From a virus: DNA of 64,000 bases. Each line of letters begins with the position of its first letter. Position 1 is the stretch's first letter. Of the stretch, positions 1,767 through 64,000 are shown piece after piece. The position numbers and the translations under genes were made by a program. The stretch is from the IMG/VR virus record IMGVR_UViG_3300008267_012518; one strand, written 5' to 3'. The notes beneath the pieces were generated by a model. The model ran no database searches. It had not been told where the DNA came from and saw only the letters and a list, made by a program, of their open reading frames with translations.

Positions 1767-2519
1767 ATGAAATTAACCTTTAGTTTGTTTTTTATTTTTC
1801 TTGTTACTTTAGTTAGATCTCAGACCAATAACTTCTCAATTGGTGGAAATTTAACCACAGGTAATCTATTAAGTTATGGTATAAATATTAGAGCAAATCT
1901 GAACACTAATCCTGAAAAATTAAACCAAATTGTATTTTCGCCAAGTTTTGATTATGGTAAGATTTCGGATCAGTCTGGTGAATTTCAATTAAGGAGAAAA
2001 GAAATACTAACTGTTCTAAATTATGAGAGGACAAAAAATAGATTTAAGTTTTATGTCTATAATGAATTCGAAAAATCATTTCTGAGGAAGATAAGGATAA
2101 GAGGTGCATTTGGTACAGGACTTTCGTATAGGATAGTAGAAAATGAAACTACCAATTTTGATGTGTCTCAGCTTATTTTGCCAGAATTTTTTCAGTCAAG
2201 TTTCACAAATAAAAGAGATAACTGGGCTTTAAGACTATCGACAAGGATACGATTATCCAAAAAATTTCCCAAGTATAGATATTCCTCACAATTATTGTTT
2301 CAACCAGCTGTTTATACAGAACTAAGTGATGGTACTGAAGTTGCACCAAAAAATAATACGACAGTCAGGATTAATAATTCCTACGAGTTTGTATTATCAA
2401 AAAATTTGTCTATAGGGTTCATGGGTGAAATGATCGTTCAAACATATACGAGTTATATCAATCCAACCGTTAAACCCTACGATACAAATTTAAATTTATT
2501 TATAAAGGGTAATTTCTAA
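1767..2519 (+). CDS. Outer-membrane beta-barrel protein (DUF481-like)
   Basis: N-terminal signal peptide, alternating amphipathic beta-strands, C-terminal Phe; IRIRGAFGTGLSYRI segment resembles DUF481. Confidence 0.65.
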   Translation: MKLTFSLFFIFLVTLVRSQTNNFSIGGNLTTGNLLSYGINIRANLNTNPEKLNQIVFSPSFDYGKISDQSGEFQLRRKEILTVLNYERTKNRFKFYVYNEFEKSFLRKIRIRGAFGTGLSYRIVENETTNFDVSQLILPEFFQSSFTNKRDNWALRLSTRIRLSKKFPKYRYSSQLLFQPAVYTELSDGTEVAPKNNTTVRINNSYEFVLSKNLSIGFMGEMIVQTYTSYINPTVKPYDTNLNLFIKGNF

Positions 2520-3130
2520 AGATACGTTTCATCTAAGAAATCAAATTCCTTTTTGGTTTCGGAAATAAGGATTAATCTACCGTTTCTAATTTGAGATTTG
2601 ATGGTAGATAGATTTTTACCCAATTCATCAGCAATGTCTTTATAAGCCATCTTTTTGATTTCTCTCATTTCGATAACCTTCCTATATGGTTCTTTGAGGT
2701 TTTGGATATGTTTCTTCATGATCTCGGCTTTTCGGTCCGAAACGTCATGTTTATTATTTTCCGAAACTTCTTCTTGTATAAAGTCCTTTAGGGTTGTACC
2801 CTCCTCGTCGATTTCAATGTCGATGGATACATTCTTTTTTGAGAGTTTTATGTCTTGGAGAAGAATATTCCTTGCGATGGTGAATAACCACGTTGAAAAT
2901 TGTGCCTTTTCTTTTTCATACTTGTCAATTTTTTCGAACGCTGTGAGGAATGATTCTGTAGTTACGTCTTCAGCTTTTTGGTGGTCTCCACACATTTTAG
3001 CCGTATAGTAAATTAACTTTGGATAATACTTTTTGTAAAAGAAAGTAAAGTCACTACCTGTTCTTTCTTTGAATAGAACTTCTTGTTCTGAGAATGATTT
3101 GACTGCCGTTGAATTGTACATATATTTCAT
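2516..3130 (-). CDS. ECF-type RNA polymerase sigma-70 factor
   Basis: Region 2 (AEDVTTESF...FSTWLFTIARN) and region 4 HTH (YKDIADELGKNLSTIKSQIRNGR). Confidence 0.92.
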   Translation of the reverse strand: MKYMYNSTAVKSFSEQEVLFKERTGSDFTFFYKKYYPKLIYYTAKMCGDHQKAEDVTTESFLTAFEKIDKYEKEKAQFSTWLFTIARNILLQDIKLSKKNVSIDIEIDEEGTTLKDFIQEEVSENNKHDVSDRKAEIMKKHIQNLKEPYRKVIEMREIKKMAYKDIADELGKNLSTIKSQIRNGRLILISETKKEFDFLDETYL

Positions 3131-15534: not shown

Positions 15535-15840
15535 ATGAAAACAGAAAAAATTTCTGCAGAGACAAAAGAAGAAACAGTGGGTTCAGTTTCCATGGAGCCA
15601 AACAATATACAAGTTGAACTCAGTGAAGAGGAGCAAGCAAGGATGGATGAGGTTAAGTCTCTAGTTGAGGCCGAGACCCTTGATCCTACCACATCCATGA
15701 ATATTTTAATAAATGCTGTTCAGTTAGCTTTTGATTCTGAAGTTTATAACGACTTAGACCGTTACTTAATTGCTAAGTCTCTGAATTGCTTCAAATCCCA
15801 CGTGGATAAGGGTGAGGATATTTTACTAAAAGTGGCTTAA
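15535..15840 (+). CDS. Hypothetical acidic protein
   Basis: 101 aa ORF with AATATATA upstream and an A-rich leader. Confidence 0.6.
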   Translation: MKTEKISAETKEETVGSVSMEPNNIQVELSEEEQARMDEVKSLVEAETLDPTTSMNILINAVQLAFDSEVYNDLDRYLIAKSLNCFKSHVDKGEDILLKVA

Positions 15841-16493
15841 TCCCATTCGATTTTATCGATGTCCGATGGATAGTGTGATTTTAAAACACTATCCATTTTT
15901 TTTGCCATAATTTTCTTATGTAGATTAAATACTTGGCTCTCGAGACCGACCACAACATCTGATTTGTGGTCCCCATTTTTATTATAATTGTTGATAACAA
16001 AGTCCGAATTACTATTTTTTACACTTTCATCCATTTCATTTGAAAGGATTTTTTCTATTAAACTTTTACTAAAAGATGTCAAATAACCCATATCGTACTT
16101 TCTTTGATATCTTGGTCTGTAACAAGATACATTGAAATTCATCAGATTATTCATACGGCGTTCAAAAATAAAGTCAAAATAAAATATTGTATAGAAATCA
16201 TTTTTGTGTTTAATTCTAAAAAGTTCATAGGATTTTAATATATCAAGTTCTATGATGTCAAATAGTTTATCGACTTTATCATTCGAATTCAACTTATTGA
16301 AATTAAGTAATCCAAGATTATAAATATCATCGCCGAATTCTGATTTAATTTTTCTAACGTGGTTTGGTGAGAAATTCAAAAGGAATTTTGTAACTAAATT
16401 TGCGTCAAAAACTGGTACATCAAAACCTTTTAAAATTTCAGAGACTTCGACTTGACCAGAATAATAATTTCCTGTGAGACCTACTTTGTACAT
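15837..16493 (-). CDS. Dephospho-CoA kinase (CoaE)-fold protein with degenerate P-loop
   Basis: MYKVGLTG...PVFDAN...SDFVINN follows the CoaE pattern, but Walker A reads GNYYSGQV rather than GxxGSGKS/T. Confidence 0.7.
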   Translation of the reverse strand: MYKVGLTGNYYSGQVEVSEILKGFDVPVFDANLVTKFLLNFSPNHVRKIKSEFGDDIYNLGLLNFNKLNSNDKVDKLFDIIELDILKSYELFRIKHKNDFYTIFYFDFIFERRMNNLMNFNVSCYRPRYQRKYDMGYLTSFSKSLIEKILSNEMDESVKNSNSDFVINNYNKNGDHKSDVVVGLESQVFNLHKKIMAKKMDSVLKSHYPSDIDKIEWD

Positions 16494-16499
16494 ATATTA

Positions 16500-16531
16500 C
16501 AAAAGTAAGTGATTTAGGTTTCATTTACAAA
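16500..16531 (-). promoter_or_regulatory. Bacteroidota-type primary-sigma promoter (CoaE-like gene)
   Basis: TTTG-N20-TACTTTTG; 6 nt to ATG. Confidence 0.75.
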
Positions 16532-26217: not shown

Positions 26218-26937
26218 TTATTTTTTTACTAACCACAAGTGACCAACCATTCCCATTTGGAATTTGTCAAAGTGTCCCATGGATTCAACTTTGTGGGATT
26301 TCTCATTTTTTGGAAATTTGATACCGGTTAATTTTTGTTTTCCGTAAATTCTTTTATCTCCATTACAGGTTTTACAAGGTGACCATCCAACCTGACCCTC
26401 TCCGTTACAGATCGTACAAGTTTTTCCAAATGGGTCTTTACCACTACCCTCACAAAAATCACATCCATCAGAACCATCAAATAGTTTCAATATATTTCCG
26501 AATTCATCTTTGATTTCTATTTTTGATTTTGTGTCCTTACCATTCCCCTTACAATCTTTACAGACAACCCATCTATCATATTCTATACTTCCATCAAAGC
26601 GATCATCGATTTTCAACAAAATATTCAAATCATTCTGATTCCATTGGCTTTCGAATTTCTCATTGTCGTAAGCAACATTTAGATTTTCATACTCATTACT
26701 CAATAGTTCTTTAGTTTCGTCATATGAGTTTCCAAACCTACTTCTGACATCATATTGTTTTCTAGTTTCATCAACTAATACATCATACGATTCGGTAATT
26801 TCGGCAAATAATATGGGGTCACCTCCTTTATCCGGATGGTGTGTGAATGAAAGCTTGTAATAGGCTTTCTTAATTTCTTTTTCTGATGATGTATTTGGAA
26901 CACCTAAAATTCCGTAATAATTCTTATTGAAGTTCAT
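26218..26937 (-). CDS. dnaJ: DnaJ-like co-chaperone (J domain plus zinc finger)
   Basis: J domain with HPD; CKDCKGNG, CDFCEGSG, CTICNGEG, CKTCNGDK; no G/F region; short C-terminus. Confidence 0.9.
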   Translation of the reverse strand: MNFNKNYYGILGVPNTSSEKEIKKAYYKLSFTHHPDKGGDPILFAEITESYDVLVDETRKQYDVRSRFGNSYDETKELLSNEYENLNVAYDNEKFESQWNQNDLNILLKIDDRFDGSIEYDRWVVCKDCKGNGKDTKSKIEIKDEFGNILKLFDGSDGCDFCEGSGKDPFGKTCTICNGEGQVGWSPCKTCNGDKRIYGKQKLTGIKFPKNEKSHKVESMGHFDKFQMGMVGHLWLVKK

Positions 26938-27118
26938 CTAGTTTACTTTGTCGCCACTTAGCTTTTTTAATTTCATTTCTCCTTTCAACAGATGGTTTTG
27001 TGAACTCCTTTCTGCGTCTCAGTTCCTTAGTAATTCCAATTTTATCAAACTTACGTTTGAACTTTTTCAAAGCTTTTTCAAGTCCATCTTTACCGCCTTG
27101 TACTTCAATTATAATCAT
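26924..27118 (-). CDS. rpsU: Ribosomal protein bS21, Bacteroidota type
   Basis: LEKALKKFKRKFDKIG...LRRRKEFTKPSVERR pattern; MIII start as in Bacteroidota S21. Confidence 0.95.
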   Translation of the reverse strand: MIIIEVQGGKDGLEKALKKFKRKFDKIGITKELRRRKEFTKPSVERRNEIKKAKWRQSKLDELQ

Positions 27119-31148: not shown

Positions 31149-31838
31149 GTGAATTTCGTTGGTTTAGACCCTTCTCTGATTTCTACTGGTTTAGTTGTTA
31201 ATGGTAAGTTATTTAACTATTGTAGAGAAAAAGATGCTATGAATAAAAGTGGATATAGTAAGTGGTTCAAATATTGTGAAGATAAAGTTACGTTTAGATT
31301 TATTGATTATAGACAAACAGAAAGTTACTCAGAAGGTGAATTAATCAAATTGAAAGACTATGATAAAATCACCGACCAGATTATCAAAGATATAGAGGAG
31401 AACATTGATAAATCAAAACCCACCAAGGTTGGTATTGAAGGATATTCATATTCTTCCGATGCGGGTGCTATTATTGACTTAGTAACTTTTTCTACCCTAT
31501 TGAGAAAAAAACTTTATGATTACATTTCCAAAGATATTACTGTCTTCTCTCCATCAACTCTGAAACTTGAGTCTTGTAAATTGACTTATCCACCAATTAA
31601 TGAGGGTAAGAAAAAAGAAAAATGGGTTTACAAAAATGCATATGGTATTAGTGGTGGTAACTTGACTAAACACGGTATGTTTATGTGTATAGTCGATAAT
31701 AATGAAATCAAAGATGATTGGTTGAACTTGTGTAGAACATTAAAAGATGATATAATGAATGCTAGTAAAGTCCCCAAGCCTTTTGAAGATCTTAACGATT
31801 CATTTTTATTGTACCATATTTTAAAGAAAAATTTGTAA
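31149..31838 (+). CDS. RuvC-like Holliday junction resolvase
   Basis: VGLDPSLISTG, IEGYS and DLNDS acidic RNase H-fold residues; GTG start. Confidence 0.75.
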   Translation: MNFVGLDPSLISTGLVVNGKLFNYCREKDAMNKSGYSKWFKYCEDKVTFRFIDYRQTESYSEGELIKLKDYDKITDQIIKDIEENIDKSKPTKVGIEGYSYSSDAGAIIDLVTFSTLLRKKLYDYISKDITVFSPSTLKLESCKLTYPPINEGKKKEKWVYKNAYGISGGNLTKHGMFMCIVDNNEIKDDWLNLCRTLKDDIMNASKVPKPFEDLNDSFLLYHILKKNL

Positions 31839-31863
31839 AGTCACCTAAACTTTCATATCTTTG
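31832..31863 (+). promoter_or_regulatory. Bacteroidota-type promoter (DUF6011 and M28 genes)
   Basis: TTTG-N20-TATCTTTG; 4 nt to ATG. Confidence 0.8.
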
Positions 31864-31867
31864 TATT

Positions 31868-32272
31868 ATGAAAGTAGGACAGATATCACACAACGTAGCC
31901 CCCGATTATATTCTTGGTGGAAAGGCTTTTGTAACCTTTCAAAACTCACAGACTGGTAATCGTTTCACCTACAAAGTGGTAAAACACAAAGTTGACGATA
32001 TTTATTTTGTTCACGTATTGACTAACCCAGATGTGTATATGTTTTTGGGTACCATTATCAATTATGGTTTCAGGCACTCTAAAAAATCAAAAATTGATCG
32101 TGATGCTAGGTCGGTTATAGTTTTTGATTATGTATTCCACCATTTAGGTATGGGAACACTCAACACATCTATTGAAATTTTTCACGATGGTCGGTGTGGA
32201 AAGTGTGGTCGTCAGCTAACAGATCCAATTTCAGTAGAAACCGGCCTTGGACCTTATTGTAGAAAAAAATAA
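31868..32272 (+). CDS. DUF6011-like protein with C-terminal zinc ribbon
   Basis: GRCGKCGRQLTDPISVETGLGPYC; N-terminal TFQNSQTGNRFTYKV. Confidence 0.75.
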   Translation: MKVGQISHNVAPDYILGGKAFVTFQNSQTGNRFTYKVVKHKVDDIYFVHVLTNPDVYMFLGTIINYGFRHSKKSKIDRDARSVIVFDYVFHHLGMGTLNTSIEIFHDGRCGKCGRQLTDPISVETGLGPYCRKK

Positions 32273-32273
32273 T

Positions 32274-33038
32274 ATGTATAATAAAATTTATGATTTTTGT
32301 AAAGTAAGAAATTACGGCAACATTTATAAAAATGATACTAACCAACCTCCACCCAGAGTTGAGTTTCTTTTGAATCTTCTCGAAGAAGAGGGTGTTGATT
32401 ATGAACTTGACAGATTTGATTCAAACAATGGGTGGTCTGGTAAAGATTGTATTGGATATAATATCATTTTAAAGGGCAATTCCTCAAAAATGGTGGTTGC
32501 TCATCATGATGTAAATAATCATAAAATTGACAATGCGAATGATAACTCAGCATCTGTCATAAACGCCATAATGGTAAAGAAACTAAAACCACAAATCAAT
32601 GTAGTTTTACTTGATGGTGAGGAAGTTGGTGGCATTGGATCGAAAAGAGTTTCTGAACAAATAAATAGGGGACAGTTTGGACAGATAGATTGGGTTCTAA
32701 ACTTGGAACTCACAGGCCGTGGGGGAAAGTATTTCTTTATTGGGGATTACCCAGGTAAACTCACAGACCATATCAAATCAATCTTTGATTGTCCTGTCTA
32801 TCAAACACCATATAATGATTCAGTAACATTTAGAGTTCATGGTATTGATTCTGTTGTTATCAATCCCATCCCTCCATTGAATGAGGGTAGAACATCGACT
32901 GTGAAATGGGACGAGAATACATATCTAGATAATAGTATGTTGAGAAACTGTCATTCTGAAAGAGATTCTATTGACACAATTGATGTAGATGATATGAAGG
33001 AATTCGTTGAGGGGGTTGTACTCAGGATATTAGAATAA
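32274..33038 (+). CDS. M28-family zinc aminopeptidase-like protein
   Basis: VAHHD, NANDNSAS, DGEEVG, LNLELTG, C-terminal His (CHSERD); ATG at 32274 preferred. Confidence 0.8.
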   Translation: MYNKIYDFCKVRNYGNIYKNDTNQPPPRVEFLLNLLEEEGVDYELDRFDSNNGWSGKDCIGYNIILKGNSSKMVVAHHDVNNHKIDNANDNSASVINAIMVKKLKPQINVVLLDGEEVGGIGSKRVSEQINRGQFGQIDWVLNLELTGRGGKYFFIGDYPGKLTDHIKSIFDCPVYQTPYNDSVTFRVHGIDSVVINPIPPLNEGRTSTVKWDENTYLDNSMLRNCHSERDSIDTIDVDDMKEFVEGVVLRILE

Positions 33039-33293
33039 CTTCTGTTCAAAACAATCAGTGTCTTTCCAGTAATTCCAAATAGTATCACCAATAGTATCTG
33101 TGATTATTATTGGTGATGGATTATCAATTATAGGATTTTCTCCACAAGAGACAATTTTGATCTTACTTTTCAAAGGATATCCGGGTATATCCTTATTAGT
33201 TGTTATCTCTATCTTTTGATAACAATCATAACATTTTTCCTTTTTACAGGCAATACATACCCACAAAACAAATAACACCATAAGAACCCTCAT
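33030..33293 (-). CDS. Lipoprotein
   Basis: Hydrophobic signal ending ...CIAC followed by KKEK; further Cys in CYDC, SCG, TDC. Confidence 0.7.
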   Translation of the reverse strand: MRVLMVLFVLWVCIACKKEKCYDCYQKIEITTNKDIPGYPLKSKIKIVSCGENPIIDNPSPIIITDTIGDTIWNYWKDTDCFEQKLF

Positions 33294-33307
33294 GGTGTTA
33301 TATATTT

Positions 33308-33700
33308 TTATTTATTTTGAAATTTTATCACATTATCTAAATAACCTTGGATATTCATTTTGCCAACAGGATTTTGTGAATGGACTACATAGTCAGGTAA
33401 TTTTTTATTATTATCGATACAAAAATTACCCAACCATTTAGCACAATCATATCCAGTTTTTTCCATTGGGATAGCATCTAGAATCCTAGAGAAGTCCATA
33501 ATATAATGTTCATCAGCTAAGTCGTGATCGAATGAAATGAAATCTGGTAATCCATTTTCAGAAATCCAATTAATAAACTCATTATAAGTCCTTACGATAA
33601 TCCAATCGTTTTCCCAATAAAATTTATTTAAGTGTGAGGGGACCAGACCATTCGCACAATCTTTTGGATTTCTTATATCGTCCAAGAATAACTTTTTCAT
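33308..33700 (-). CDS. Cyclic-phosphate-processing receiver-like (cREC) protein
   Basis: LFLDDIRNP, IVRTYNEF, ISFDHDL, TGYDCAKW, VHSQNPVG. Confidence 0.8.
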   Translation of the reverse strand: MKKLFLDDIRNPKDCANGLVPSHLNKFYWENDWIIVRTYNEFINWISENGLPDFISFDHDLADEHYIMDFSRILDAIPMEKTGYDCAKWLGNFCIDNNKKLPDYVVHSQNPVGKMNIQGYLDNVIKFQNK

Positions 33701-33704
33701 TCTA

Positions 33705-33736
33705 CAAAGATAATTAAAAATTATTAATTAAACAAA
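33705..33736 (-). promoter_or_regulatory. Bacteroidota-type promoter (cREC gene)
   Basis: TTTG-N20-TATCTTTG; 4 nt to ATG. Confidence 0.8.
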
Positions 33737-34947
33737 TCATCTGCTGATAGATCTTCTCTGAATTCATCATCAGAATTACCCATCAGATCATTGAGGTCCT
33801 TTTCAACTTCTTCAATTTCATCTAAAGATTTATATCTGAAGTAATCATTGACTATTGGTTCCATCTTCTTAAGAACCTCAGGTGTGAATACTTCCGGTGT
33901 GAATAGATTTTTCGTTGTTACGGATTTATCTAAGTGACTGATGTACCAACGAATACCGCCGGGATTAAAAGTCATTTCACCAGTTTTTTTATCTACTTCA
34001 ACCTTACCTTGTGCGATGCCGATTTGGTTGAAATATTCTGGTCTACAAAAAGCATCAAGACCTGTGTATGGATTCATACCATGATTGAATGAAATATCAA
34101 ATCTGATTTTCTTTGGTTTAGCGAGACGATTTTTTGCGGTTTTAAATAGTACTGTAATACCTGACTGTCCTAGATCCATATCATCTTCTTCACCAGTTTT
34201 TAGTTTTGACTTTGACATCATACCAATTACTGAAGCAGAGTAAACAAGGGATCTACCACCTTTGAGTACCTCTTGTGGAAACATATCTTGTGTCAGATAG
34301 GTATGATTACAAACAATCATAGGGATATCCAAAAATCCAAGGTCAGTATTGATTGAACGGAATAGTGAACCAATAGCTTTAGCTTTAGTCATATCTTGTT
34401 TGATATCGCCTTTTAACAAATCAGCTTTTTCTTTATTAGAAGCCATCTGTCCAATTGAATCCAAAACAATCATAAGTGGTTGGATTTCATTCCCTTTGAG
34501 TTTCTCTTCTTTTAGAGAATCAAGTAATTGTGTAAGTGTGATATTTATATCTTCTACTTTATTTGATCTCACTAGAATGAATTTCTGTGGGTCTGAATCA
34601 ATTCCATATTTTGAAATCTCATCCAATTCAACTGAATACTCAGTATCAATGTAAACAACACCATAACCTTCTTTTTGAGCATTTTTAGCTACAGAGTAAG
34701 CCAAAAATGATTTACCAGTTCCGGATTCACCTGCAAAACACGTAATTCGGTTTGTTTGTACTCCACCTCCTAAAAGTCTTGAGGAAAGTGCTGCATCAAG
34801 TAGATACACACCTGTTGAAATGAATTTTTTTTCTTTCACTTTATCATCGATGATGATGGGCACAGTCTTAGCAATACTAGACATAAGTGCACCTACTTTA
34901 CTGAATTCAAACTTTTTAGAGCCATTATCTTTCTTTTCTTTTGCCAT
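33724..34947 (-). CDS. recA: RecA/UvsX recombinase
   Basis: ISTGVYLLD, Walker A GESGTGKS, YIDTEYS, LDSIG, NHTY, GGRSLVYSAS, KNRL. Confidence 0.95.
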   Translation of the reverse strand: MAKEKKDNGSKKFEFSKVGALMSSIAKTVPIIIDDKVKEKKFISTGVYLLDAALSSRLLGGGVQTNRITCFAGESGTGKSFLAYSVAKNAQKEGYGVVYIDTEYSVELDEISKYGIDSDPQKFILVRSNKVEDINITLTQLLDSLKEEKLKGNEIQPLMIVLDSIGQMASNKEKADLLKGDIKQDMTKAKAIGSLFRSINTDLGFLDIPMIVCNHTYLTQDMFPQEVLKGGRSLVYSASVIGMMSKSKLKTGEEDDMDLGQSGITVLFKTAKNRLAKPKKIRFDISFNHGMNPYTGLDAFCRPEYFNQIGIAQGKVEVDKKTGEMTFNPGGIRWYISHLDKSVTTKNLFTPEVFTPEVLKKMEPIVNDYFRYKSLDEIEEVEKDLNDLMGNSDDEFREDLSADDLFN

Positions 34948-35001
34948 ATAAATAAAAATTAATTTAATATTTATATCAAAATCAAAAGTAAAAGATTTAA
35001 A

Positions 35002-35376
35002 TTATTGACCGATTCTAAATGAATTTGTTTGACTTGTTCCCCCTATTTTATTTGTTCTTGTAATACCATCGCCACCAGGTACTTTATAAGTCATGTAGTC
35101 TATTTCACCACCAATCAATTCGGGATTTCTTTTGAAATATTTGATAGCTTTATTTCTTAATTCTTCACCATATGCGTCCATGTCATCCGAAGATAAGTCT
35201 TTTGGGAATTTTTGACCTATTTTTTTAGCCAAATCTTCATATCTACCTTTAGTGCATAAACCATCGACATAATCTTGGATTTTAAGATCTAGCACTGGAT
35301 TGAAATCTGGTATCACTTCCCCACCATCGTCCACACCAGTTTGGTGAAACATTTCAAATTTTTTAATAAATTTCAT
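35002..35376 (-). CDS. Hypothetical protein, putative internal head protein
   Basis: MKFIKKFEMF leader; AATATATA 6 nt upstream. Confidence 0.55.
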   Translation of the reverse strand: MKFIKKFEMFHQTGVDDGGEVIPDFNPVLDLKIQDYVDGLCTKGRYEDLAKKIGQKFPKDLSSDDMDAYGEELRNKAIKYFKRNPELIGGEIDYMTYKVPGGDGITRTNKIGGTSQTNSFRIGQ

Positions 35377-35394
35377 ATTAATTATATATTAAAC

Positions 35395-35425
35395 TTTGTT
35401 TTTGTAAAAGGTAGTATTACCTTTG
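35395..35425 (+). promoter_or_regulatory. Bacteroidota-type promoter (phosphoesterase, greA, tRNA-Arg unit)
   Basis: TTTG-N19-TACCTTTG; 4 nt to ATG. Confidence 0.8.
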
Positions 35426-35429
35426 TACT

Positions 35430-36032
35430 ATGAACATATGGTTTACATCAGATACGCACTTCGGACACACCAACATTGCTGGTCCAAGTATATCTGTTTG
35501 GAAAGATGGATTTAGAAACTTCAATTCTGTTCAAGAAATGAACGATGCTCTTATCCACAATATAAATAAGATAGTTGGTGAAGATGATATCCTTTACCAC
35601 CTTGGTGATTGGAGCTTTGGTGGAGTTCATAATATCTACTATTTTAGGAAATCACTTATCTGTAAAAATATTCACCTAATTCTTGGTAACCACGACCAAC
35701 ATATCACAAATAAAGAAATCAAATTTCTTGATAGTTCATTCAACCCAATAGATTTGTTTAGTTCTGTTCAAGATGTTTTCACGGGAAAGATAGGTAAAAA
35801 CTATTTTCACCTCTCACATTATTCCCACCAAGTTTGGCCAGGAAGTCATAAAAATTTTATACACCTATTTGGACATAGCCACGGAAGTCTAAAAGGTCTT
35901 GGTAAGTCTATGGATGTTGGCGTTGATACTCACCCAGAATTCAGACCTTATCATATAAATGAAATTATCAAAATTATGGATAAGATACCTGTAAAATTTA
36001 TTGATCACCACGATGAAAGCACAAATGTTTGA
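35430..36032 (+). CDS. Calcineurin-like metallophosphoesterase
   Basis: SDTHFGH, HLGD, GNHD, SHY, GHSHG motifs. Confidence 0.92.
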   Translation: MNIWFTSDTHFGHTNIAGPSISVWKDGFRNFNSVQEMNDALIHNINKIVGEDDILYHLGDWSFGGVHNIYYFRKSLICKNIHLILGNHDQHITNKEIKFLDSSFNPIDLFSSVQDVFTGKIGKNYFHLSHYSHQVWPGSHKNFIHLFGHSHGSLKGLGKSMDVGVDTHPEFRPYHINEIIKIMDKIPVKFIDHHDESTNV

Positions 36033-36092
36033 AAATAAGCCAACTTTTATAAACTGATAAATATAACTGAAATTCAAAATAACTTAAATTAT

Positions 36093-36563
36093 ATGGCAAA
36101 AATACCTATGACCCGAGAAGGGTTTCAAAAATTAGAGCAAGAATTAAAGGATATGCGTGGTCCACAGTTGAGGGAACATATCCAAAATTTGGCAGAAGCA
36201 AAAGATAAAGGTGACCTTTCAGAAAATGCTGAATATGATGTCGCTAAAACAGCTATTGATGATTTAAATAGAAAAATCAATAAACTTTCACAGAAGTTAG
36301 CAGATGCTGAAATTATTGAAGGTATTATCGATGATGGTACAGTTCAACTACTTACTTGGGTTAAATTCAAAAATACTAAGAGTGGGGTTACGATCGAATA
36401 TCGAATTGTGCCAGAAAATGAAATTGATATTAAATCTGGTAAAATCTCGCACCTAAGTCCTATTGGAAGTGCTCTAATGGGTAATCGAGTTGGAGATAAA
36501 GTAATTGCAGAAGTACCTATTGGTAAAATGGAACTTGAGATTTTGGAAATCAGAGTTAAGTAA
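36093..36563 (+). CDS. greA: Transcription elongation factor GreA
   Basis: MTREGFQKL...GDLSENAEY (conserved D/E), ISHLSPIGSALMG. Confidence 0.95.
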   Translation: MAKIPMTREGFQKLEQELKDMRGPQLREHIQNLAEAKDKGDLSENAEYDVAKTAIDDLNRKINKLSQKLADAEIIEGIIDDGTVQLLTWVKFKNTKSGVTIEYRIVPENEIDIKSGKISHLSPIGSALMGNRVGDKVIAEVPIGKMELEILEIRVK

Positions 36564-36835
36564 TGATTGGTCTTTACAAGGGTCATGTATTTCAAGGATC
36601 TAATAAGATGTGGCAAGAGTATAGAATTGTTCATCTTGGTAAGTGGGATGGGAGTGATGAAGTTTTTTTTACAACCTACCACCACGAATTTCCAAATGAG
36701 AGATTACAAATCTATCTTCATAAATACAAACCTTTGTCAAGAACATTCAAAGCTAATATTGACCAGTATATGAAAAAAGATCCTTATTTTATTGAATTAA
36801 ACAGAGAAGAAAAATTAAACGATTTACTATCATGA
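36563..36835 (+). CDS. Hypothetical protein with C-terminal REEKL motif
   Basis: Start overlaps the greA stop; ends LNREEKLNDLLS. Confidence 0.65.
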   Translation: MIGLYKGHVFQGSNKMWQEYRIVHLGKWDGSDEVFFTTYHHEFPNERLQIYLHKYKPLSRTFKANIDQYMKKDPYFIELNREEKLNDLLS

Positions 36836-37209
36836 TAAAAATAGAAGTTGACTGTATAGACGAAAAAATTGAACTCCTTGATAGGATTAAAATCCTACAT
36901 AAGAAAATGAAAAAATCCCTAAATAAAGATGGGGATAAAATGTTTGATGAAGATGAACTTATAGATTTCCCATTCTATATTGATCCCTTTCATATTAAAG
37001 TAACAACAGAAGAATCTATTCAAAAAATGATTAATAAGTTAATTGATGAATATTGGGAAAATGTTGACTTCGATCTTGGATATGAAAATGAAAAGTATTA
37101 TGTTTGTCATAAGAAATCAAAACACGTAGTTGAACTGGACAAGGGTAGTACCTGGGACGACTATAGGGATGAAAGAATTAAATTGAAGAACTTTTTTGAA
37201 AGTATTTGA
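36832..37209 (+). CDS. Hypothetical protein
   Basis: 125 aa, ATGA-coupled to the previous gene. Confidence 0.65.
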   Translation: MIKIEVDCIDEKIELLDRIKILHKKMKKSLNKDGDKMFDEDELIDFPFYIDPFHIKVTTEESIQKMINKLIDEYWENVDFDLGYENEKYYVCHKKSKHVVELDKGSTWDDYRDERIKLKNFFESI

Positions 37210-37224
37210 TATAAGAAAACTAAT

Positions 37225-37300
37225 GGTTCCGTAGCTCAGCCCGGATAGCAGCAACTCACTTCTAATGAGTAGGTCATAGGTTCGAATCCTATCGGAACTA
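37225..37300 (+). tRNA. tRNA-Arg(UCU)
   Basis: Acceptor GGTTCCG/CGGAACT, anticodon arm ACTCA-CTTCTAA-TGAGT, T arm ATAGG-TTCGAAT-CCTAT; CCA not encoded. Confidence 0.93.
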
Positions 37301-37301
37301 C

Positions 37302-37333
37302 AAAGGAACTCTAAATGAGTTCCTTTTTCTTTT
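37302..37333 (+). terminator. Intrinsic terminator after tRNA-Arg
   Basis: AAAGGAACTC-TAAAT-GAGTTCCTTT followed by TTCTTTT. Confidence 0.85.
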
Positions 37334-37334
37334 C

Positions 37335-37466
37335 ATTTATTTAATCCATAAATCTTGGGATTTTTGGTATGATTATCAAAATGATTTACATAGAATAAGA
37401 GAAGAAAAGATAAATGAGATATTTGGTATAGGTAAGGAAACTTTAAAAGATATTTGGCCAGAGTAA
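37335..37466 (+). pseudogene. ATG-less open frame encoding an REEKINEIF motif peptide
   Basis: Frame reads IYLIHKSWDFWYDYQNDLHRIREEKINEIFGIGKETLKDIWPE*; no ATG back to the in-frame TGA at 37266; the start coordinate is a guess (ATT). Confidence 0.45.
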
Positions 37467-37484
37467 AACTTTATATTACCTTTG
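37453..37484 (+). promoter_or_regulatory. Bacteroidota-type promoter (54-aa ORF and tRNA-Cys)
   Basis: TTTG-N20-TACCTTTG; 4 nt to ATG. Confidence 0.8.
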
Positions 37485-37488
37485 TATT

Positions 37489-37653
37489 ATGAATTCTGAA
37501 CAATACCTCAACTATCTACAAGAATCTCAACATATTGCACTTGAGTCCTATAATTACATAGGTGAAATGTATAATTCTTACATGACTAGTCAACTCTATG
37601 ACGAATATCTTCAACTTCAGAGGGATGAAAAGATTGATGAAATACTAAACTAA
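37489..37653 (+). CDS. 54-aa hypothetical protein with C-terminal RDEKI motif
   Basis: Translated by hand: MNSEQYLNYLQESQHIALESYNYIGEMYNSYMTSQLYDEYLQLQRDEKIDEILN; host-type promoter 4 nt upstream. Confidence 0.75.
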   Translation: MNSEQYLNYLQESQHIALESYNYIGEMYNSYMTSQLYDEYLQLQRDEKIDEILN

Positions 37654-37724
37654 GGTCCGTTGTCAGAGCGGTTATGTCGAGGACTGCAAATCCTTTTAGC
37701 CTGGTTCGACTCCAGGACGGACCT
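37654..37724 (+). tRNA. tRNA-Cys(GCA)
   Basis: Acceptor GGTCCGT/ACGGACC with U discriminator, anticodon arm GAGGA-CTGCAAA-TCCTT, T arm CCTGG-TTCGACT-CCAGG; CCA not encoded. Confidence 0.93.
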
Positions 37725-37725
37725 C

Positions 37726-38835
37726 TTAATTTAATCTATCTACTGCAAACTGCAGATTTCCTCTAACCCTATCATAATAATGATGTGGTATTTTATTCTC
37801 TGTAAGTAATTGTTCACACGCTTTTTTGGATTCCTCGAAATAACCTGAGTAATAAGATATGATTGAAAATTCGTCGAGTATACCGTAATCATAAATCCAA
37901 TCTTCGGAAAATAAACTATTTGATGGTTTAGTGATATTCAGAGCTTGTTTTCCGAAAATATATCCCATTTGATGTAGACCATGTATCCTACAATAATGTA
38001 ATAAATGATAAAGACACTCTGCTCTATTCGGGCAAGATTCGTGCCCCTTCAAATAATTAAAAATGATCTTTTCTGGTGGGTAATTCAACTCATTCATCAA
38101 ATTTCCTACGTTAACATAACTTATAAAAACTTCTTCATTCCAAAAACCCATTTCACCGCGCTTCAAATAGAATTCTAAAGATTCCTCACGTCTTTGAAGA
38201 TCTCTTAGTGATTGTGCAAGATAAAATGTATATCTCGATTTGAACCACAAATCCTCTGTTTCATCTATGGCTTGTTTCAAAAGTATAACATCTTGTTCGA
38301 ATTTATTACCACTCCTATTTCTATTGCTGTCTTGTATTGGTTGATTGTAAAAACCGTTAGCAGTTTTTCTTGTCTCAACTTCACCTGTTAGAAACTCATG
38401 AATAACACCCTCATACCGATAATTTTTTTTATTAGAACTAATTTGTGGTCTCACATAGGTTATACCACCCATTTTTGTGGTGATATCATATAAATCAACA
38501 TCCATAGTATTTTTAAATTCTGATACATCAAAATCCTCATCAAATATTAAAATTTCGTCAGCATCAATCATCAAAGCATAGTCTACATTTTGATGATCTC
38601 TCAATTTTTCCAATGCTAAACTTCTGTTGTGTGCAAAATTTTTCCAAGGTTCTGAATATACAAATCCAGGTATTTGATTTTTGGTTAGCCAGTTATTTAT
38701 AACTTCGGTTGTTTCATCTGTAGAACCAGTGTCTTGAATTATTACTGCGTCTATCAATGGCTTCACTGAATTCAAACATCGTTCCATGACGTGTGATTCA
38801 TTTTTTACAATCATGCATAAAGCTATTGTTTTCAT
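37726..38835 (-). CDS. GT2 glycosyltransferase with C-terminal TPR-like repeats
   Basis: LCMIVKNE, DTGSTD, NFAHNRS, IDADE, YEGVIHE; helical FYLAQS...GEMGFWNEE repeats. Confidence 0.9.
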   Translation of the reverse strand: MKTIALCMIVKNESHVMERCLNSVKPLIDAVIIQDTGSTDETTEVINNWLTKNQIPGFVYSEPWKNFAHNRSLALEKLRDHQNVDYALMIDADEILIFDEDFDVSEFKNTMDVDLYDITTKMGGITYVRPQISSNKKNYRYEGVIHEFLTGEVETRKTANGFYNQPIQDSNRNRSGNKFEQDVILLKQAIDETEDLWFKSRYTFYLAQSLRDLQRREESLEFYLKRGEMGFWNEEVFISYVNVGNLMNELNYPPEKIIFNYLKGHESCPNRAECLYHLLHYCRIHGLHQMGYIFGKQALNITKPSNSLFSEDWIYDYGILDEFSIISYYSGYFEESKKACEQLLTENKIPHHYYDRVRGNLQFAVDRLN

Positions 38836-38856
38836 TCAGATATTTTTTTATATTTG
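38825..38856 (+). promoter_or_regulatory. Bacteroidota-type promoter (ligase)
   Basis: ATTG-N20-TATATTTG; 4 nt to ATG at 38861. Confidence 0.7.
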
Positions 38857-38860
38857 TAGT

Positions 38861-39487
38861 ATGATTAAATATCAAAGTTTCCAATATATTTATCCACCTA
38901 GACCCAAAAACCCCATACCTTCTACTGATTTGAATATTTGGGATAATGGTATGATGTTGGCTCAACCTAAAATCAATGGATCAAATTGTACCATCTATAC
39001 AAATGGTAAAGATATTTATGTTTATAATCGTCATGGACAAAGACTTACTGGTTTTGATATTCCCAAAGAAGAAATATTGAATTTATATCGCGGTAACGGG
39101 TGGTGGGTTTTGAATGGTGAGTATACAAATAAATCTAAACAAAATGAAAATGGAAGTGTTTTTTCACACAAATTCTGTTTGTTTGATATTCTTGTTAAAA
39201 ATGGTGAGTATTTAATTGGTACAACATTTCAACAAAGAGTGGATATGATGTTAGAACTTTATGGTAGTCCCAAAGATTACATTAGTCAAATAACTGAAAA
39301 TACTTTCGTTATCAAATCTTTCTATAATGATTTCACCACAATATTCAATGACTTATCAAAAATTGATATGATTGAGGGTTTAGTTCTAAAAAGAAAGTCA
39401 GCTAAACTTGAAACTGGGACGAGTGAAAACAATAATTCAAAAAGTCAGATCAAATCTAGGAAAGCTACAAAAAATTATAAGTATTAA
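38861..39487 (+). CDS. ATP-dependent ligase, nucleotidyltransferase domain only
   Basis: Motifs I QPKINGS, Ia NRHG, III LNGE, IIIa FDIL, IV IEGLVLK, V QIKSRK; ends with no OB domain; ATG at 38861 chosen because of the upstream promoter. Confidence 0.8.
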   Translation: MIKYQSFQYIYPPRPKNPIPSTDLNIWDNGMMLAQPKINGSNCTIYTNGKDIYVYNRHGQRLTGFDIPKEEILNLYRGNGWWVLNGEYTNKSKQNENGSVFSHKFCLFDILVKNGEYLIGTTFQQRVDMMLELYGSPKDYISQITENTFVIKSFYNDFTTIFNDLSKIDMIEGLVLKRKSAKLETGTSENNNSKSQIKSRKATKNYKY

Positions 39488-62202: not shown

Positions 62203-63726
62203 ATGAAGAGAATTCTTTTTCAAGAAACAGATTTCAACAATTTACCTACACCACCAGAGGGATTTAGATATATTGGATTTGATGGTCCCAAATTTAGTGA
62301 AAAGGGTGATGATGGTGTAACTAGTCAAGCTAGTGGAGGTGGTGTTAGTCTACCAGATACCTTCGTAGCAATCGGAGGTGGTTTGACCGGTTCAGCAACT
62401 GGTTCACAATTATTCACATTCGATAGTACTTGTAAAAATCTTATTGTAGGAAATGGTCACACCAAAAATGACACTGATAATGGTGTTATTATAGGTGGTT
62501 ATACAAACACCCTAGATGGTGGTGGTGAGGGTTTATTTAATTCATCAATTATTGGTGGACATTATAATAAAATCTGTTATAGATCTGACGAATCTTCAAT
62601 CATAGGTGGATATGAAAACCGTATTGAATACTATAGTTGTCGTTCATCTATATTGGGTGGACGTTATAACTGTGTTATAGACAATTCTCGTGAAAGTACT
62701 ATTATAGGGGGTGCGTATAATACAATTTGTAATGATAGTTGTTGTTCTTCTATAATGGGTGGATGTTATAACTGCATTGAAAATAGTTGCCGTTCTTCTG
62801 TAATAGGTGGTAGATGTAGTGAAATTTACAATGATTCAAATGATTCATCAATAATGGGTGGATGTTGTAACTGCATCGAGGATAGTTGCCGTTCTTCTGT
62901 AATAGGTGGTAGATGTAATGAAATTTGTACTGGTACAAATGATTCATCTATATTGGGTGGTTATGGTAACCGTATGAACGATTCATCAAGTTGTTCTTCT
63001 TTAATAGGTGGTTATTATAACTGTGTGTGTGATAATTCAAAAAACTCTTCAATAGTTGGTGGGGAATATAATGTAATTTGTGGATACTCTTGTCATTCAT
63101 CAATAATGGGTGGGTGTTGTAATAGTATTTGTGGCAAATATGGAATTACCCAATCTAATGGTTACTGTTTTGGTTCTTGTCATTCATCAGTTATTGGTGG
63201 ATGTTACAATAGTATTTGTGATGAATCTAGGAGGTCATCTATCTTGGGCGGTTCTTGTAACAAAATTGTTTGTCAAAGTTGCGATTCATCTATAATAGGT
63301 GGTTATAGAAGTATTATAGATTTATCATCTTGTAACTCATCTATTATTGGTGGATATTGTAATCAAATTTGTGGTTCTACCGCTGGTGGTTATTATGGTG
63401 GAACTGGCTCAAATAACTCATCTATTATTGGTGGATGTTGTAATCAAATAGTATATAATTCTCGTAACTCATCAATTATTGGTGGAGTTTGTAATAAAGT
63501 TTTTGGAGATTATGGTTCTGGAGTTAACTCGATTATAGCTGGGTGTGATAACATAATTTGTTGTTCAGATCACTCGACAATTATTGGGGGTGAATGTAAC
63601 AAAATTTATGGAGAATCTGATTATTCTGTTATAATTGGTGGTTCTGATGGTTTGATTTGTGAAACACAATACTCTGCTATAATTGCTGGATGTTGTAATA
63701 GAATATGTATTGGTTTATACCGTTAA
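62203..63726 (+). CDS. Cys-rich SSIIGG-repeat beta-helix fibre protein, 5' part
   Basis: About 25 units of S-S-I-I-G-G-x-x-N at 16-17 aa spacing; the repeat continues past the stop in the +1 frame. Confidence 0.7.
   Translation: MKRILFQETDFNNLPTPPEGFRYIGFDGPKFSEKGDDGVTSQASGGGVSLPDTFVAIGGGLTGSATGSQLFTFDSTCKNLIVGNGHTKNDTDNGVIIGGYTNTLDGGGEGLFNSSIIGGHYNKICYRSDESSIIGGYENRIEYYSCRSSILGGRYNCVIDNSRESTIIGGAYNTICNDSCCSSIMGGCYNCIENSCRSSVIGGRCSEIYNDSNDSSIMGGCCNCIEDSCRSSVIGGRCNEICTGTNDSSILGGYGNRMNDSSSCSSLIGGYYNCVCDNSKNSSIVGGEYNVICGYSCHSSIMGGCCNSICGKYGITQSNGYCFGSCHSSVIGGCYNSICDESRRSSILGGSCNKIVCQSCDSSIIGGYRSIIDLSSCNSSIIGGYCNQICGSTAGGYYGGTGSNNSSIIGGCCNQIVYNSRNSSIIGGVCNKVFGDYGSGVNSIIAGCDNIICCSDHSTIIGGECNKIYGESDYSVIIGGSDGLICETQYSAIIAGCCNRICIGLYR
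62752..62949 (+). repeat. Tandem 99-nt duplication inside the fibre gene
   Basis: Units 62752-62850 and 62851-62949; 11 mismatches in 99 nt by hand count. Confidence 0.85.
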
Positions 63727-64000
63727 ACTTGGGGGTAACTCAATTATAGGAGGTCTTACAAATAGTATTGTTAACTCTGAAAACTCAGTTATATTGGGTG
63801 GTTATGATAATGATATTACAGATTGTTCTATTAATAGTTCCATAATTGGTGGGTATAATAACTGCATAGGAATAACCTCAAGTGCACCAGTTTGTAATTC
63901 AGGTATATTTGGTGGTCAAAATAACTTTATTCAAAATTATACTTGTGATTCAGCTATCATAGGTGGTAGTAATAATGAAATTTCTGGTGACTTTGAAGTT
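63722..64000 (+). CDS. Frameshifted continuation of the SSIIGG-repeat protein (partial)
   Basis: +1 frame reads VKLGGNSIIGGLTNSIVNSENSVILGGYDNDITDCSINSSIIGGYNNCI... to the window end with no ATG of its own. Confidence 0.75.

What the first reader, a model, noticed from the sequence alone, without database searches (positions are those of the whole stretch)
31832..38863. Host-type promoters placed exactly 4 nt before the ATG: a leaderless early regulon
Seen: five promoters (31832-63, 33705-36 on minus, 35395-425, 37453-84, 38825-56) read (T/A)TTG-N19/20-TAnnTTTG followed by exactly 4 nt and then ATG; a sixth (16500-31) has 6 nt. Established: TTTG(-33)/TAnnTTTG(-7) is the Bacteroidota primary-sigma consensus, and transcription starts a few nt after the final G. 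Inference: the start site falls on or next to the A of AUG, so DUF6011, cREC, the phosphoesterase, the 54-aa ORF and the ligase are made from leaderless mRNAs right after infection. Such mRNAs load on 70S ribosomes without needing S1 or an SD/anti-SD interaction, which could let these genes be translated while host initiation is disabled.
Basis: partly seen in the sequence, partly recalled or inferred. Interest (0 to 1): 0.82.

Follow-up and report, generated by a model that had tools for sequence, protein, structure and literature searches.

The report
Leaderless genes behind host-type phage promoters
A large phage of Bacteroidota places the host's standard promoter box exactly four bases before the start codon of about a dozen genes, so these messages probably have no leader at all; this layout is rare in host-type bacteria but dominant in this phage and many uncultured relatives.

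Summary

- **This phage (178 kb):** ATG sits 4 nt after the box 21 times against about 6 at other offsets. Twelve of these open real ORFs against about 1.4 expected (p = 4e-8).
- **Relatives (1.28 Mb of IMG/VR phage DNA):** the peak is 71-93 genes. Offsets 6-11 are almost empty, and a low hump follows at 12-26.
- **Host-type genomes (Flavobacterium, Chryseobacterium):** the pattern is inverted, with the mode at 17-30 nt and only about 3% at 4 nt.

Published start-site maps put the box at -12 to -5, so +1 falls on the A of ATG.

The "leaderless" reading is well supported but has no start-site data behind it. "Early" is plausible: the phage has two sigma factors and a second promoter family, AATATATA. 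That second family also abuts start codons, so leaderless design is genome-wide rather than an early-gene speciality. The Shine-Dalgarno argument is moot, because neither the phage nor Bacteroidota use SD.

The trait is lineage-specific. It is absent from cultured Flavobacterium phage immuto and Cellulophaga phage phi17:2, and it tends to co-occur with phage bS21.

This scan has noted box-N4-ATG and start-codon-fused promoters before, in other Bacteroidota phages. I found no paper describing the layout.

The parts
31832..31870 (+). Host-type promoter (TTTG-N20-TATCTTTG) plus a 4-nt spacer and the ATG of the DUF6011 gene (31868-32272). The -33 element overlaps the stop codon of the upstream gene.
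   Evidence: The same box-tatt-ATG is kept in relatives L035 and L036 although the upstream sequence differs.
33698..33736 (-). Host-type promoter plus a 4-nt spacer and the ATG of the cREC_REC gene (33308-33700).
   Evidence: The MKKLFLDD start is conserved. Close relatives have the box at 4 or 5 nt (L036, L043, L083, L035); others have it at 30-35 nt or lack it.
35395..35432 (+). Host-type promoter plus a 4-nt spacer and the ATG of the calcineurin-like phosphoesterase (35430-36032). It lies in a 53-nt divergent gap shared with an AATATATA promoter on the other strand.
   Evidence: The MNIWF start is conserved in nearly all of 34 homologue loci. Bacteroidota-type relatives have the box at exactly 4 nt (9 loci) or at 16-23 nt (8 loci), and none in between.
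37453..37725 (+). Host-type promoter plus a 4-nt spacer, a conserved 54-aa ORF (37489-37653) and tRNA-Cys (37654-37725) directly abutting its stop codon.
   Evidence: The ORF, the box-N4-ATG and the abutting tRNA are kept in L035 and L036.
38825..38863 (+). Host-type promoter (ATTG-N20-TATATTTG) plus a 4-nt spacer and the ATG of a nucleotidyltransferase-type ligase (38861-39487). The promoter lies inside the 5' coding end of the divergent GT2 gene (37726-38835, minus strand).
   Evidence: Homologues in huge phages start at the same residue, with the box at 3 nt (LR745206) or 17 nt (LR756502).
16491..16531 (-). Host-type promoter with a 6-nt spacer before the ATG of a CoaE-like P-loop kinase gene (15837-16493). 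The predicted leader is about 2 nt.
35377..35392 (-). Example of the second, phage-specific promoter family: AATATATA plus 6 nt and the ATG of gene 35002-35376. Other copies abut starts at window 1767, 28283, 28803, 33293, 40059, 42688, 45110 and 52763.
2516..3130 (-). Phage sigma-70-family factor (regions 2 and 4_2), a candidate reader of the AATATATA family. A second sigma gene lies outside the window at genome 29465-30193 (minus strand).
26924..27118 (-). Phage-encoded ribosomal protein bS21. Context for any effect on translation initiation.

Best explanation
These are promoters of the host's primary sigma factor (sigma-ABfr type: -33 TTG, -7 TAnnTTTG). They sit so that transcription starts on the A of the start codon. 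The first gene of each unit is therefore made from an mRNA with no 5' untranslated region, which ribosomes must initiate on through its 5'-terminal AUG.

In this phage about 12 genes have the exact 4-nt layout and about 8 more have 2-7 nt. Together these are roughly two thirds of its well-formed host-type promoters. They drive non-structural genes: two ligases, a phosphoesterase, cREC, a P-loop kinase, a GmrSD-like nuclease, UvdE and small ORFs. These genes are probably expressed before the phage's own sigma factors take over.

The same promoter-against-ATG design is repeated in the phage-specific AATATATA promoter family. Leaderless initiation therefore looks like a general expression strategy of this phage lineage.

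**Shown:** the motifs, spacings, statistics, true N-termini, conservation in relatives and contrast with host-type genomes.

**Inferred:** the position of +1, which sigma reads the box, the timing, and any selective advantage.
For: **Sites and statistics**
- Sites and sequence.
- Sharp peak at offset 4 in the phage: 21 ATGs against 5.9, and 12 real ORFs against 1.43.
- A -33 TTG at 19-20 nt in 10 of 12 sites.
- Of about 22 intergenic boxes with a -33 TTG, 14 lie no more than 7 nt from an ATG.

**Position of +1**
- Published TSS maps put the box at T-12...G-5, with 4 or 5 nt to +1, in F. johnsoniae and F. psychrophilum.

**True N-termini**
- The MNIWF start is kept in nearly all of the 34 phosphoesterase homologue loci, including SD-using phages.
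- Pfam and PHROG profiles start within a few residues of these ATGs.
- Ligase homologues start at the same residue.

**Bimodality expected of leaderless against leadered initiation**
- Phosphoesterase orthologues have the box at 4 nt (9 loci) or 16-23 nt (8 loci), never in between.
- The relatives' histogram is 4:71, 5:9, 3:4, offsets 6-11: 3 in all, then a hump at 12-26.
- The same gap is reported for mapped leaders in Lactococcus cremoris.

**Start codon**
- AUG 71, GUG 8, UUG 0 at offset 4, as expected for a purine +1 and a 5'-terminal start codon.

**Contrast with host-type genomes**
- The mode is 17-30 nt and only 3 of about 90 lie at 4 nt.
- Density of box-N4-ATG is 101-117 per Mb in the phage and relatives, against 20-32 per Mb in bacteria; the reversed-pattern controls give 11-17 per Mb.

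**Temporal programme**
- Two phage sigma genes and a distinct AATATATA family in front of the very large ORFs.
Against: - There are no transcription start data for this phage or its relatives, and the host is unknown. Bacteroidota is inferred from the motifs and from relatives.
- In F. johnsoniae the start lies 4 or 5 nt after the box. A 5-nt start would begin the RNA at the U of AUG and lose the start codon.
- Two of the five promoters lie in 23-29-nt gaps behind a co-directional gene, so read-through transcripts could also carry these cistrons.
- The box could be read by one of the two phage sigma factors rather than by the host sigma.
- Cultured Flavobacteriia phages (immuto, phi17:2) and some relatives lack the pattern. 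It is therefore not required for infecting such hosts.
- Whether leaderless mRNAs are translated well in Bacteroidota has not been measured, to my knowledge.
Confidence: 0.72

Rival explanations
1. The promoters are real, but the first cistron is mainly translated from longer read-through or upstream transcripts. The box-proximal start gives RNAs that begin within or just after the AUG, or that serve downstream genes or tRNA-Cys. The 4-nt spacing would then reflect packing of signals, not leaderless translation.
For: - Promoters at 31832 and 33736 sit in 23-29-nt gaps after co-directional genes.
- The 54-aa ORF is followed at once by tRNA-Cys.
- The published spacing is '4 or 5 nt'.
Against: - Packing alone would not give a one-base-sharp peak with an empty zone at 6-11 nt across hundreds of unrelated genes.
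- It would not explain the strong preference for AUG and purine at that base.
- Divergent cases (35430, 38861) have no upstream co-directional gene.
Confidence: 0.12
2. The box is read by a phage-encoded sigma factor that mimics the host consensus. These genes would then be middle or late rather than early.
For: The phage encodes two sigma-70-family proteins. One has regions 1.2, 2 and 4.
Against: - The motif, the -33 spacing and the A-tract are the same as in bacterial promoters.
- A separate motif, AATATATA, is abundant in the phage and absent from gene fronts in host-type genomes. It is the better candidate for the phage sigma factors.
- The genes served are non-structural.
Confidence: 0.1
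3. The conserved element is not a promoter. It would be a start-codon-associated operator for translation control, in the manner of the start-associated sequences of Cluster K mycobacteriophages.
For: The fixed register to the ATG.
Against: - The same box with the same -33 partner also occurs 16-40 nt upstream of other genes, including orthologues of these very genes.
- It is the mapped promoter consensus of the host phylum.
Confidence: 0.04
4. A chance or compositional effect in an AT-rich genome.
For: The genome is 32% G+C, and TAnnTTTG is common: 149 copies in the window.
Against: - Comparison with the other offsets gives p = 4e-8 in the phage and 2e-71 in the relatives.
- Reversed-pattern controls are 4-9 times lower.
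- Host-type genomes of the same G+C content show no such peak.
Confidence: 0.01

Closest known systems
Bacteroidota primary-sigma (sigma-ABfr) promoters: -33 TTTG / -7 TAnnTTTG (literature cited in PMC6847099; Baez 2019; Guerin 2021; Ryan 2020)
   Same: Identical -7 box, a -33 TTG at 19-20 nt, and an AT-rich tract near -18. The box is expected at -12..-5.
   Different: In bacteria the box mostly lies 17-30 nt before the ATG. Reported short or absent leaders are 5.5% leaderless in F. psychrophilum, 3.7% with 5' UTRs under 10 nt in B. thetaiotaomicron, and 13% with leaders of 10 nt or less in F. johnsoniae. In this phage about two thirds of such promoters abut the ATG.
Leaderless genes of Actinobacteria, Deinococcus and archaea, and phage lambda cI from PRM (own knowledge; PMC3160421 and PMC10491246 appeared but were not read)
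   Same: A promoter element at a fixed short distance from the start codon, a 5'-terminal AUG, and a bimodal distribution of leader lengths.
   Different: In those cases leaderless genes are either common in the host or a single regulatory case. Here a phage lineage uses them on a large scale in a phylum where hosts rarely do, and from two promoter classes.
bS21-encoding phages of freshwater Bacteroidota (Chen 2022, PMC9723584) and huge phages (Al-Shayeb 2020, PMC7162821)
   Same: - A large genome, a phage bS21 gene and a predicted Bacteroidota host.
- The window's ligase is closest to uncultured-phage records of 635-735 kb. By size alone I take these to be the >634-kb Bacteroidetes phages of PMC7162821; the accessions do not appear in that paper's main text.
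- Two of these three records show the same enrichment.
   Different: Those papers propose that phage bS21 favours phage transcripts, but they name no distinguishing feature of those transcripts. The word 'leaderless' does not occur in either main text.
Phage late promoters read by phage sigma factors (T4 gp55 with TATAAATA; phiEco32 and 7-11 sigma factors)
   Same: The AATATATA family looks like such a phage-specific class, and it goes with phage sigma genes.
   Different: About half of its copies sit 4-7 nt from the ATG.

Membership tests
sigma-ABfr-type (Bacteroidota housekeeping) promoter | -7 element TAnnTTTG (TAHHTTTG) | tested here: met
   All six sites match; the two variable positions are never G.
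sigma-ABfr-type (Bacteroidota housekeeping) promoter | -33 TTG/TTTG about 20 nt upstream of the -7 element | tested here: met
   A TTG lies at 19-20 nt in 10 of 12 sites in the phage and 55 of 93 in the relatives, against about 8-10% of other boxes.
sigma-ABfr-type (Bacteroidota housekeeping) promoter | Transcription by host RNAP-sigmaA starting 4-5 nt after the final G | not testable with these tools
   Known only from published maps of F. johnsoniae and F. psychrophilum. There are no data for this phage.
Leaderless mRNA gene | Transcription start within about 0-5 nt of the start codon | not testable with these tools
   Inferred from the 4-nt spacer and the published box position of -12..-5.
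Leaderless mRNA gene | The ATG next to the promoter is the true N-terminus | tested here: met
   - It is the first start of the ORF for four of the five genes.
- N-termini are conserved for the phosphoesterase, cREC, the ligase and the 54-aa ORF.
- Profile alignments begin at residues 1-7.
Leaderless mRNA gene | Start codon AUG (rarely GUG); none needs a UUG | tested here: met
   At offset 4: ATG 71, GTG 8, TTG 0 in the relatives; ATG 9, GTG 0, TTG 0 in the phage.
Leaderless mRNA gene | Bimodal leader lengths with an avoided zone of about 5-12 nt | tested here: met
   Offsets 6-11 hold 3 genes, against 84 at offsets 3-5. Orthologues switch between 4 nt and 16-23 nt only.
Early (host-polymerase-dependent) phage regulon | A separate phage-specific promoter class and phage transcription factors for later genes | tested here: met
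   The AATATATA family has 54 copies, about 40 of them at gene fronts, and does not sit before genes in the host-type genomes sampled. Two sigma genes are present.
Early (host-polymerase-dependent) phage regulon | Expression in the first minutes of infection, independent of phage protein synthesis | not testable with these tools
   No cultured host and no expression data.
Early (host-polymerase-dependent) phage regulon | Leaderless layout specific to the early class | tested here: not met
   16-18 AATATATA copies also lie 4-7 nt from start codons.

The most novel reading that the evidence does not exclude
In this lineage of large Bacteroidota phages, the leaderless 5' end is the feature that marks phage messages for preferential translation. 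This could work through ribosomes that have taken up the phage bS21, or during a phage-imposed block of normal 30S-dependent initiation. That would supply the missing 'address label' in the bS21-hijack hypothesis of Al-Shayeb 2020 and Chen 2022.

Support is limited to co-occurrence. Records with bS21 have a higher excess of box-N4-ATG: median 3.7 against 1.25 per 100 kb, Mann-Whitney p = 0.003. This is uncorrected for relatedness and has clear exceptions in both directions.
Probability: 0.15. Interest if true: 0.85.

Novelty: new member of a known kind. Interest (0 to 1): 0.6.

Why it matters
- **Translation in Bacteroidota.** This phylum initiates translation without Shine-Dalgarno pairing, and how its phages compete for ribosomes is open. 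A phage lineage in which most host-type promoters, and about half of the phage-type ones, are fused to start codons gives a concrete, testable difference between phage and host messages. Hosts have about 3-6% leaderless messages.
- **Links to existing work.** The lineage connects to the unexplained phage bS21 genes and to published huge-phage genomes.
- **Practical use.** The box-N4-ATG rule fixes true start codons, which gene callers often extend upstream. The ligase here is an example: 38861, not 38786.
- **A compact tool.** The element is about 36 bp and combines promoter and start for expression in Flavobacteriia.

Tried and rejected
- **Near relatives by DNA.** A megablast of 9 kb against GenBank phages found only a tRNA match.
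- **Ligase relatives in IMG/VR.** None found. tblastn against GenBank phages later gave five huge-phage homologues.
- **'Relatives' search.** Host-type genomes were reached instead through a Cytophaga-Flavobacterium 16S probe sequence.
- **Chance or composition.** Rejected.
- **Upstream start for the ligase (38786 or 38813).** Rejected. It would overlap the divergent GT2 gene, and homologues start at 38861.
- **A general trait of Flavobacteriia phages.** Rejected. Box-N4-ATG against the reversed control is 1 vs 6 for immuto, 3 vs 1 for phi17:2 and 5 vs 3 for G008.
- **A strict link to bS21.** Rejected. G014 and G027 are enriched without bS21, and G026 has bS21 without enrichment.
- **SD-independence as the advantage.** Rejected as an argument, because the phage's leadered genes lack SD too.
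- **The 7-nt class as a general second mode.** It is seen in this phage (5-6 genes) but not in the relatives (2), so it is left as 'near-leaderless, uncertain'.

Full report
**1. What is at the coordinates.**

- On the plus strand, a TTTG or ATTG at 31832, 35395, 37453 and 38825 is followed after 19-20 nt by TATCTTTG, TACCTTTG, TACCTTTG and TATATTTG. Exactly four bases follow (tatt, tact, tatt, tagt), and then the ATG at 31868, 35430, 37489 and 38861.
- On the minus strand the box at 33712-33705 is followed by taga and the ATG at 33700.
- The sixth box, at 16507-16500 on the minus strand, has six bases before the ATG at 16493.

The window is bases 114340-178052 of a 178,052-bp virus contig of 32% G+C.

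**2. More than chance.**

I took every TAnnTTTG in the whole genome and asked at which offset an ATG follows.
- Offset 4 has 21 ATGs. The other sixty offsets average 5.9, with a maximum of 15.
- Counting only ATGs that open at least 50 codons, offset 4 has 12 against a mean of 1.43 (Poisson p = 4e-8).
- Besides the five window genes, the same layout heads genes at genome positions 1897, 5462, 8925, 18618, 20337, 30926 and 49229. About eight more genes have spacers of 2, 3, 5, 6 or 7 nt.
- Ten of the twelve 4-nt sites have a TTG exactly 19-20 nt upstream of the box, against about 8% of other boxes.
- The consensus is AATTTG, about 19 nt rich in A/T with an A-tract, then TAtcTTTGTAnTATG.
- Among about 22 intergenic boxes that have the -33 partner, 14 lie no more than 7 nt from an ATG. 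Only five to eight are leadered, at 18-40 nt.

**3. Where transcription should start.**

Three transcriptome papers give the reference.
[quoted passage not shown] 87% of leaders exceed 10 nt (PMC6847099).
- In F. psychrophilum the box is at -12 to -5 and 5.5% of mRNAs are leaderless (PMC9723704).
- In B. thetaiotaomicron 3.7% of 5' UTRs are shorter than 10 nt (PMC7366714).

With G at -5, a four-base spacer places +1 on the A of ATG. This is an inference from the host phylum's maps, not a measurement on the phage.

**4. The ATGs are the real starts.**
- For four of the five genes the ATG is the first possible start in the ORF.
- The phosphoesterase begins MNIWF in nearly all of its 34 homologue loci, including phages that use a plain GGAGG ribosome-binding site.
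- The cREC protein begins MKKLFLDD in its close homologues.
- The Pfam and PHROG alignments start at residues 1-7.
- The 54-aa ORF is conserved as a protein in two relatives.
- The ligase ORF could be extended to 38786 or 38813. That extension would overlap the divergent glycosyltransferase gene (start 38835), and homologues in three huge phages begin at the residue encoded at 38861.

**5. Relatives.**

Phosphoesterase orthologues in Bacteroidota-style IMG/VR phages carry the box either exactly 4 nt (9 loci) or 16-23 nt (8 loci) before the same ATG, with nothing in between. The ligase orthologues repeat this, at 3 nt in LR745206 and 17 nt in LR756502.

Around 80 cREC homologues I collected 1.28 Mb of phage DNA.
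- With duplicates removed, and counting only the first ATG of ORFs of at least 60 codons, the offsets are 3:4, 4:71, 5:9 and 6-11: three in all. A low hump follows at 12-26.
- Without the first-ATG filter, offset 4 has 93 against a mean of 6.6 (p = 2e-71).
- At offset 4 the start codon is ATG 71 times, GTG 8 times and TTG never. This fits a purine +1 and the known dependence of leaderless initiation on a 5'-terminal AUG.
- An empty zone between leaderless and leadered classes has been reported from mapped 5' ends in Lactococcus cremoris (PMC10986495).

**6. Host-type genomes show the opposite.**

I sampled 400 kb each of a Flavobacterium (33% G+C) and a Chryseobacterium genome, reached through a 16S probe search.
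- The box-to-ATG distance peaks at 17-30 nt. Only 3 of about 90 gene-proximal boxes lie at 4 nt, in line with the published 4-6%.
- Box-N4-ATG density is 101 per Mb in the phage and 117 in the relatives. It is 20 and 32 in the two bacteria. The reversed-pattern controls give 11-17.
- Five whole Bacteroidota genomes give 15-24 per Mb.

**7. Not universal among such phages.**

Whole-record counts of box-N4-ATG against the reversed-pattern control:

| Record | Count vs control |
|---|---|
| G006 (465 kb) | 32 vs 7 |
| G007 (476 kb) | 30 vs 7 |
| G011 | 17 vs 0 |
| G014 | 19 vs 5 |
| G018 | 20 vs 4 |
| LR745206 (635 kb) | 33 vs 7 |
| LR756502 (642 kb) | 17 vs 5 |
| Flavobacterium phage immuto | 1 vs 6 |
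| Cellulophaga phage phi17:2 | 3 vs 1 |
| G008 | 5 vs 3 |
| LR756501 (735 kb) | 10 vs 16 |

The layout is therefore a lineage trait, not a necessity of the host.

**8. Gene content and programme.**

The host-type, start-fused promoters serve non-structural genes:
- a T4 Rnl1-like RNA ligase (genome 30926);
- the second ligase;
- the calcineurin-like phosphoesterase;
- a cyclic-phosphate-processing receiver domain protein (cREC);
- a CoaE-like P-loop kinase;
- a GmrSD-like nuclease;
- UvdE;
- a zinc-ribbon/TM2 protein;
- DUF6011;
- small ORFs.

Several of these together look like an RNA-repair set. The leadered host-type promoters serve an HNH-type protein, an ATPase and two peptidases.

The phage has two sigma-70-family genes. 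It also has a second motif, AATATATA, in 54 copies. About 40 of these precede genes, including the very large ORFs, and the motif does not precede genes in the host-type genomes sampled. This supports a switch from host sigma to phage sigma, and so an early role for the TAnnTTTG units. Timing itself remains inferred.

**9. Leaderless design is not confined to the early class.**

The AATATATA family is bimodal as well. 16-18 genes have it 4-7 nt from the ATG and about 22 have it at 16-34 nt, with two in between. In the relatives its peak is at 4 nt (27 genes). An earlier first-reader note on this window had listed these spacers, and my counts reproduce its list. Taking both classes together, roughly 35-40 of about 195 genes would be first cistrons of leaderless or nearly leaderless messages.

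**10. The proposed advantage.**

- SD-like 4-mers precede 8 of 195 phage genes, against 8% of random windows. The host phylum also lacks SD use. SD-independence therefore cannot distinguish phage messages from host messages.
- What could distinguish them is the leaderless 5' end itself.
- The phage encodes bS21. Two papers on large Bacteroidota phages propose that phage bS21 favours phage transcripts without naming a feature, and neither main text contains the word 'leaderless' (PMC7162821, PMC9723584).
- Across 32 records, those with bS21 have a higher excess of box-N4-ATG: median 3.7 against 1.25 per 100 kb, Mann-Whitney p = 0.003.
- Those records are related to each other, and many are fragments. 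There are exceptions both ways: G014 and G027 are enriched without bS21, and G026 has bS21 without enrichment.
- I treat this as a lead, not a result.

**11. Known or new.**
- Full-text searches combining leaderless with TAnnTTTG, with bacteriophage plus Flavobacterium, with phage plus Bacteroidetes, and with early genes plus phage plus transcription start site, and a search for TAnnTTTG plus phage, found no description of this layout in phages of Bacteroidota.
- For comparison, phage phiKZ has no leaderless transcript (PMC8244752).
- Leaderless genes as such, and promoter boxes at a fixed distance from the start codon, are well known in other phyla and in single phage genes. This is my own knowledge; PMC3160421 surfaced but I did not read it. 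The mechanism is therefore not new.
- What is new is its scale, its use from two promoter classes, and its contrast with the hosts.
- Notes from this scan report the same box-N4-ATG in a crAss-like phage and start-codon-fused late promoters in other Bacteroidota phages. I did not test those.

**12. Verdict.**
- The leaderless reading is the best explanation, with a confidence of about 0.7.
- The 'early regulon' reading is plausible but too narrow.
- A translational-takeover advantage is unproven.
- I classify the finding as a new member of a known kind, with a moderately high interest score of 0.6. It offers a simple, testable discriminator between phage and host messages in a phylum with unusual translation initiation.

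Noticed in passing
window 1767, 28283, 28803, 33293, 35376, 40059, 42688, 45110, 52763 (4-7 nt) and 5195, 15535, 16570, 18200, 40118, 46971, 53927, 56663 (17-31 nt): A second, phage-specific promoter-like family, (T)AATATATA(A), has 54 copies in the genome. About 40 precede genes, with a bimodal spacer to the ATG. It does not precede genes in the Flavobacterium and Chryseobacterium samples. In relatives its peak lies at 4 nt. It is probably read by one of the phage sigma factors.
   Followed up: partly
window 26924-27118 (-): A phage-encoded ribosomal protein bS21 (Pfam E = 8.5e-13). Across 32 related records, bS21 presence goes with a higher excess of box-N4-ATG (p = 0.003, not corrected for relatedness), with exceptions.
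   Followed up: partly
window 2516-3130 (-); genome 29465-30193 (-) = L278:11465-12193: Two sigma-70-family genes. One is ECF-like (regions 2 and 4_2, 204 aa). The other has regions 1.2, 2 and 4 (242 aa).
   Followed up: partly
genome 30926-32020 (L278:12926-14020); window 38861-39487, 35430-36032, 33308-33700, 15837-16493: A possible RNA-repair toolkit: T4 Rnl1-like RNA ligase, a second ligase, a phosphoesterase, cREC (a cyclic-phosphate-processing receiver) and a P-loop kinase. All are headed by start-fused host-type promoters. This may be a counter-measure to host anticodon nucleases.
   Followed up: no
window 37489-37725: The 54-aa ORF ends one base before tRNA-Cys. The ORF, its C-terminal QRDEKIxEIL motif and the abutting tRNA are all kept in relatives L035 and L036. 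The promoter may serve both the small protein and the tRNA.
   Followed up: partly
window 38835-38861: The start codons of the divergent GT2 glycosyltransferase gene (minus strand) and the ligase gene (plus strand) are only 25 nt apart. The ligase promoter lies inside the GT2 coding region, and the GT2 promoter must lie inside the ligase gene or be start-fused as well.
   Followed up: no
genome 58816, 55865, 105215 (L280, L279, L282): The leadered host-type promoters have a fuller TTGACA-like -33 element than the start-fused ones.
   Followed up: no
L285 (LR745206.1), L286 (LR756502.1), L287 (LR756501.1): The window's ligase is closest to genes of uncultured phages of 635-735 kb. By their sizes these look like the >634-kb Bacteroidetes phages of Al-Shayeb 2020. 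Two of the three show the same box-N4-ATG enrichment.
   Followed up: partly
genome 18618-20276 (L278:618-2276): A GmrSD-like (DUF262) nuclease gene of 552 aa lies in the phage behind a start-fused host-type promoter. Three consecutive ATGs give spacers of 1, 4 and 7 nt.
   Followed up: no
window 63714-64000: The last 287 bases of the window are not part of the held contig, and they do not match the contig's first bases.
   Followed up: no
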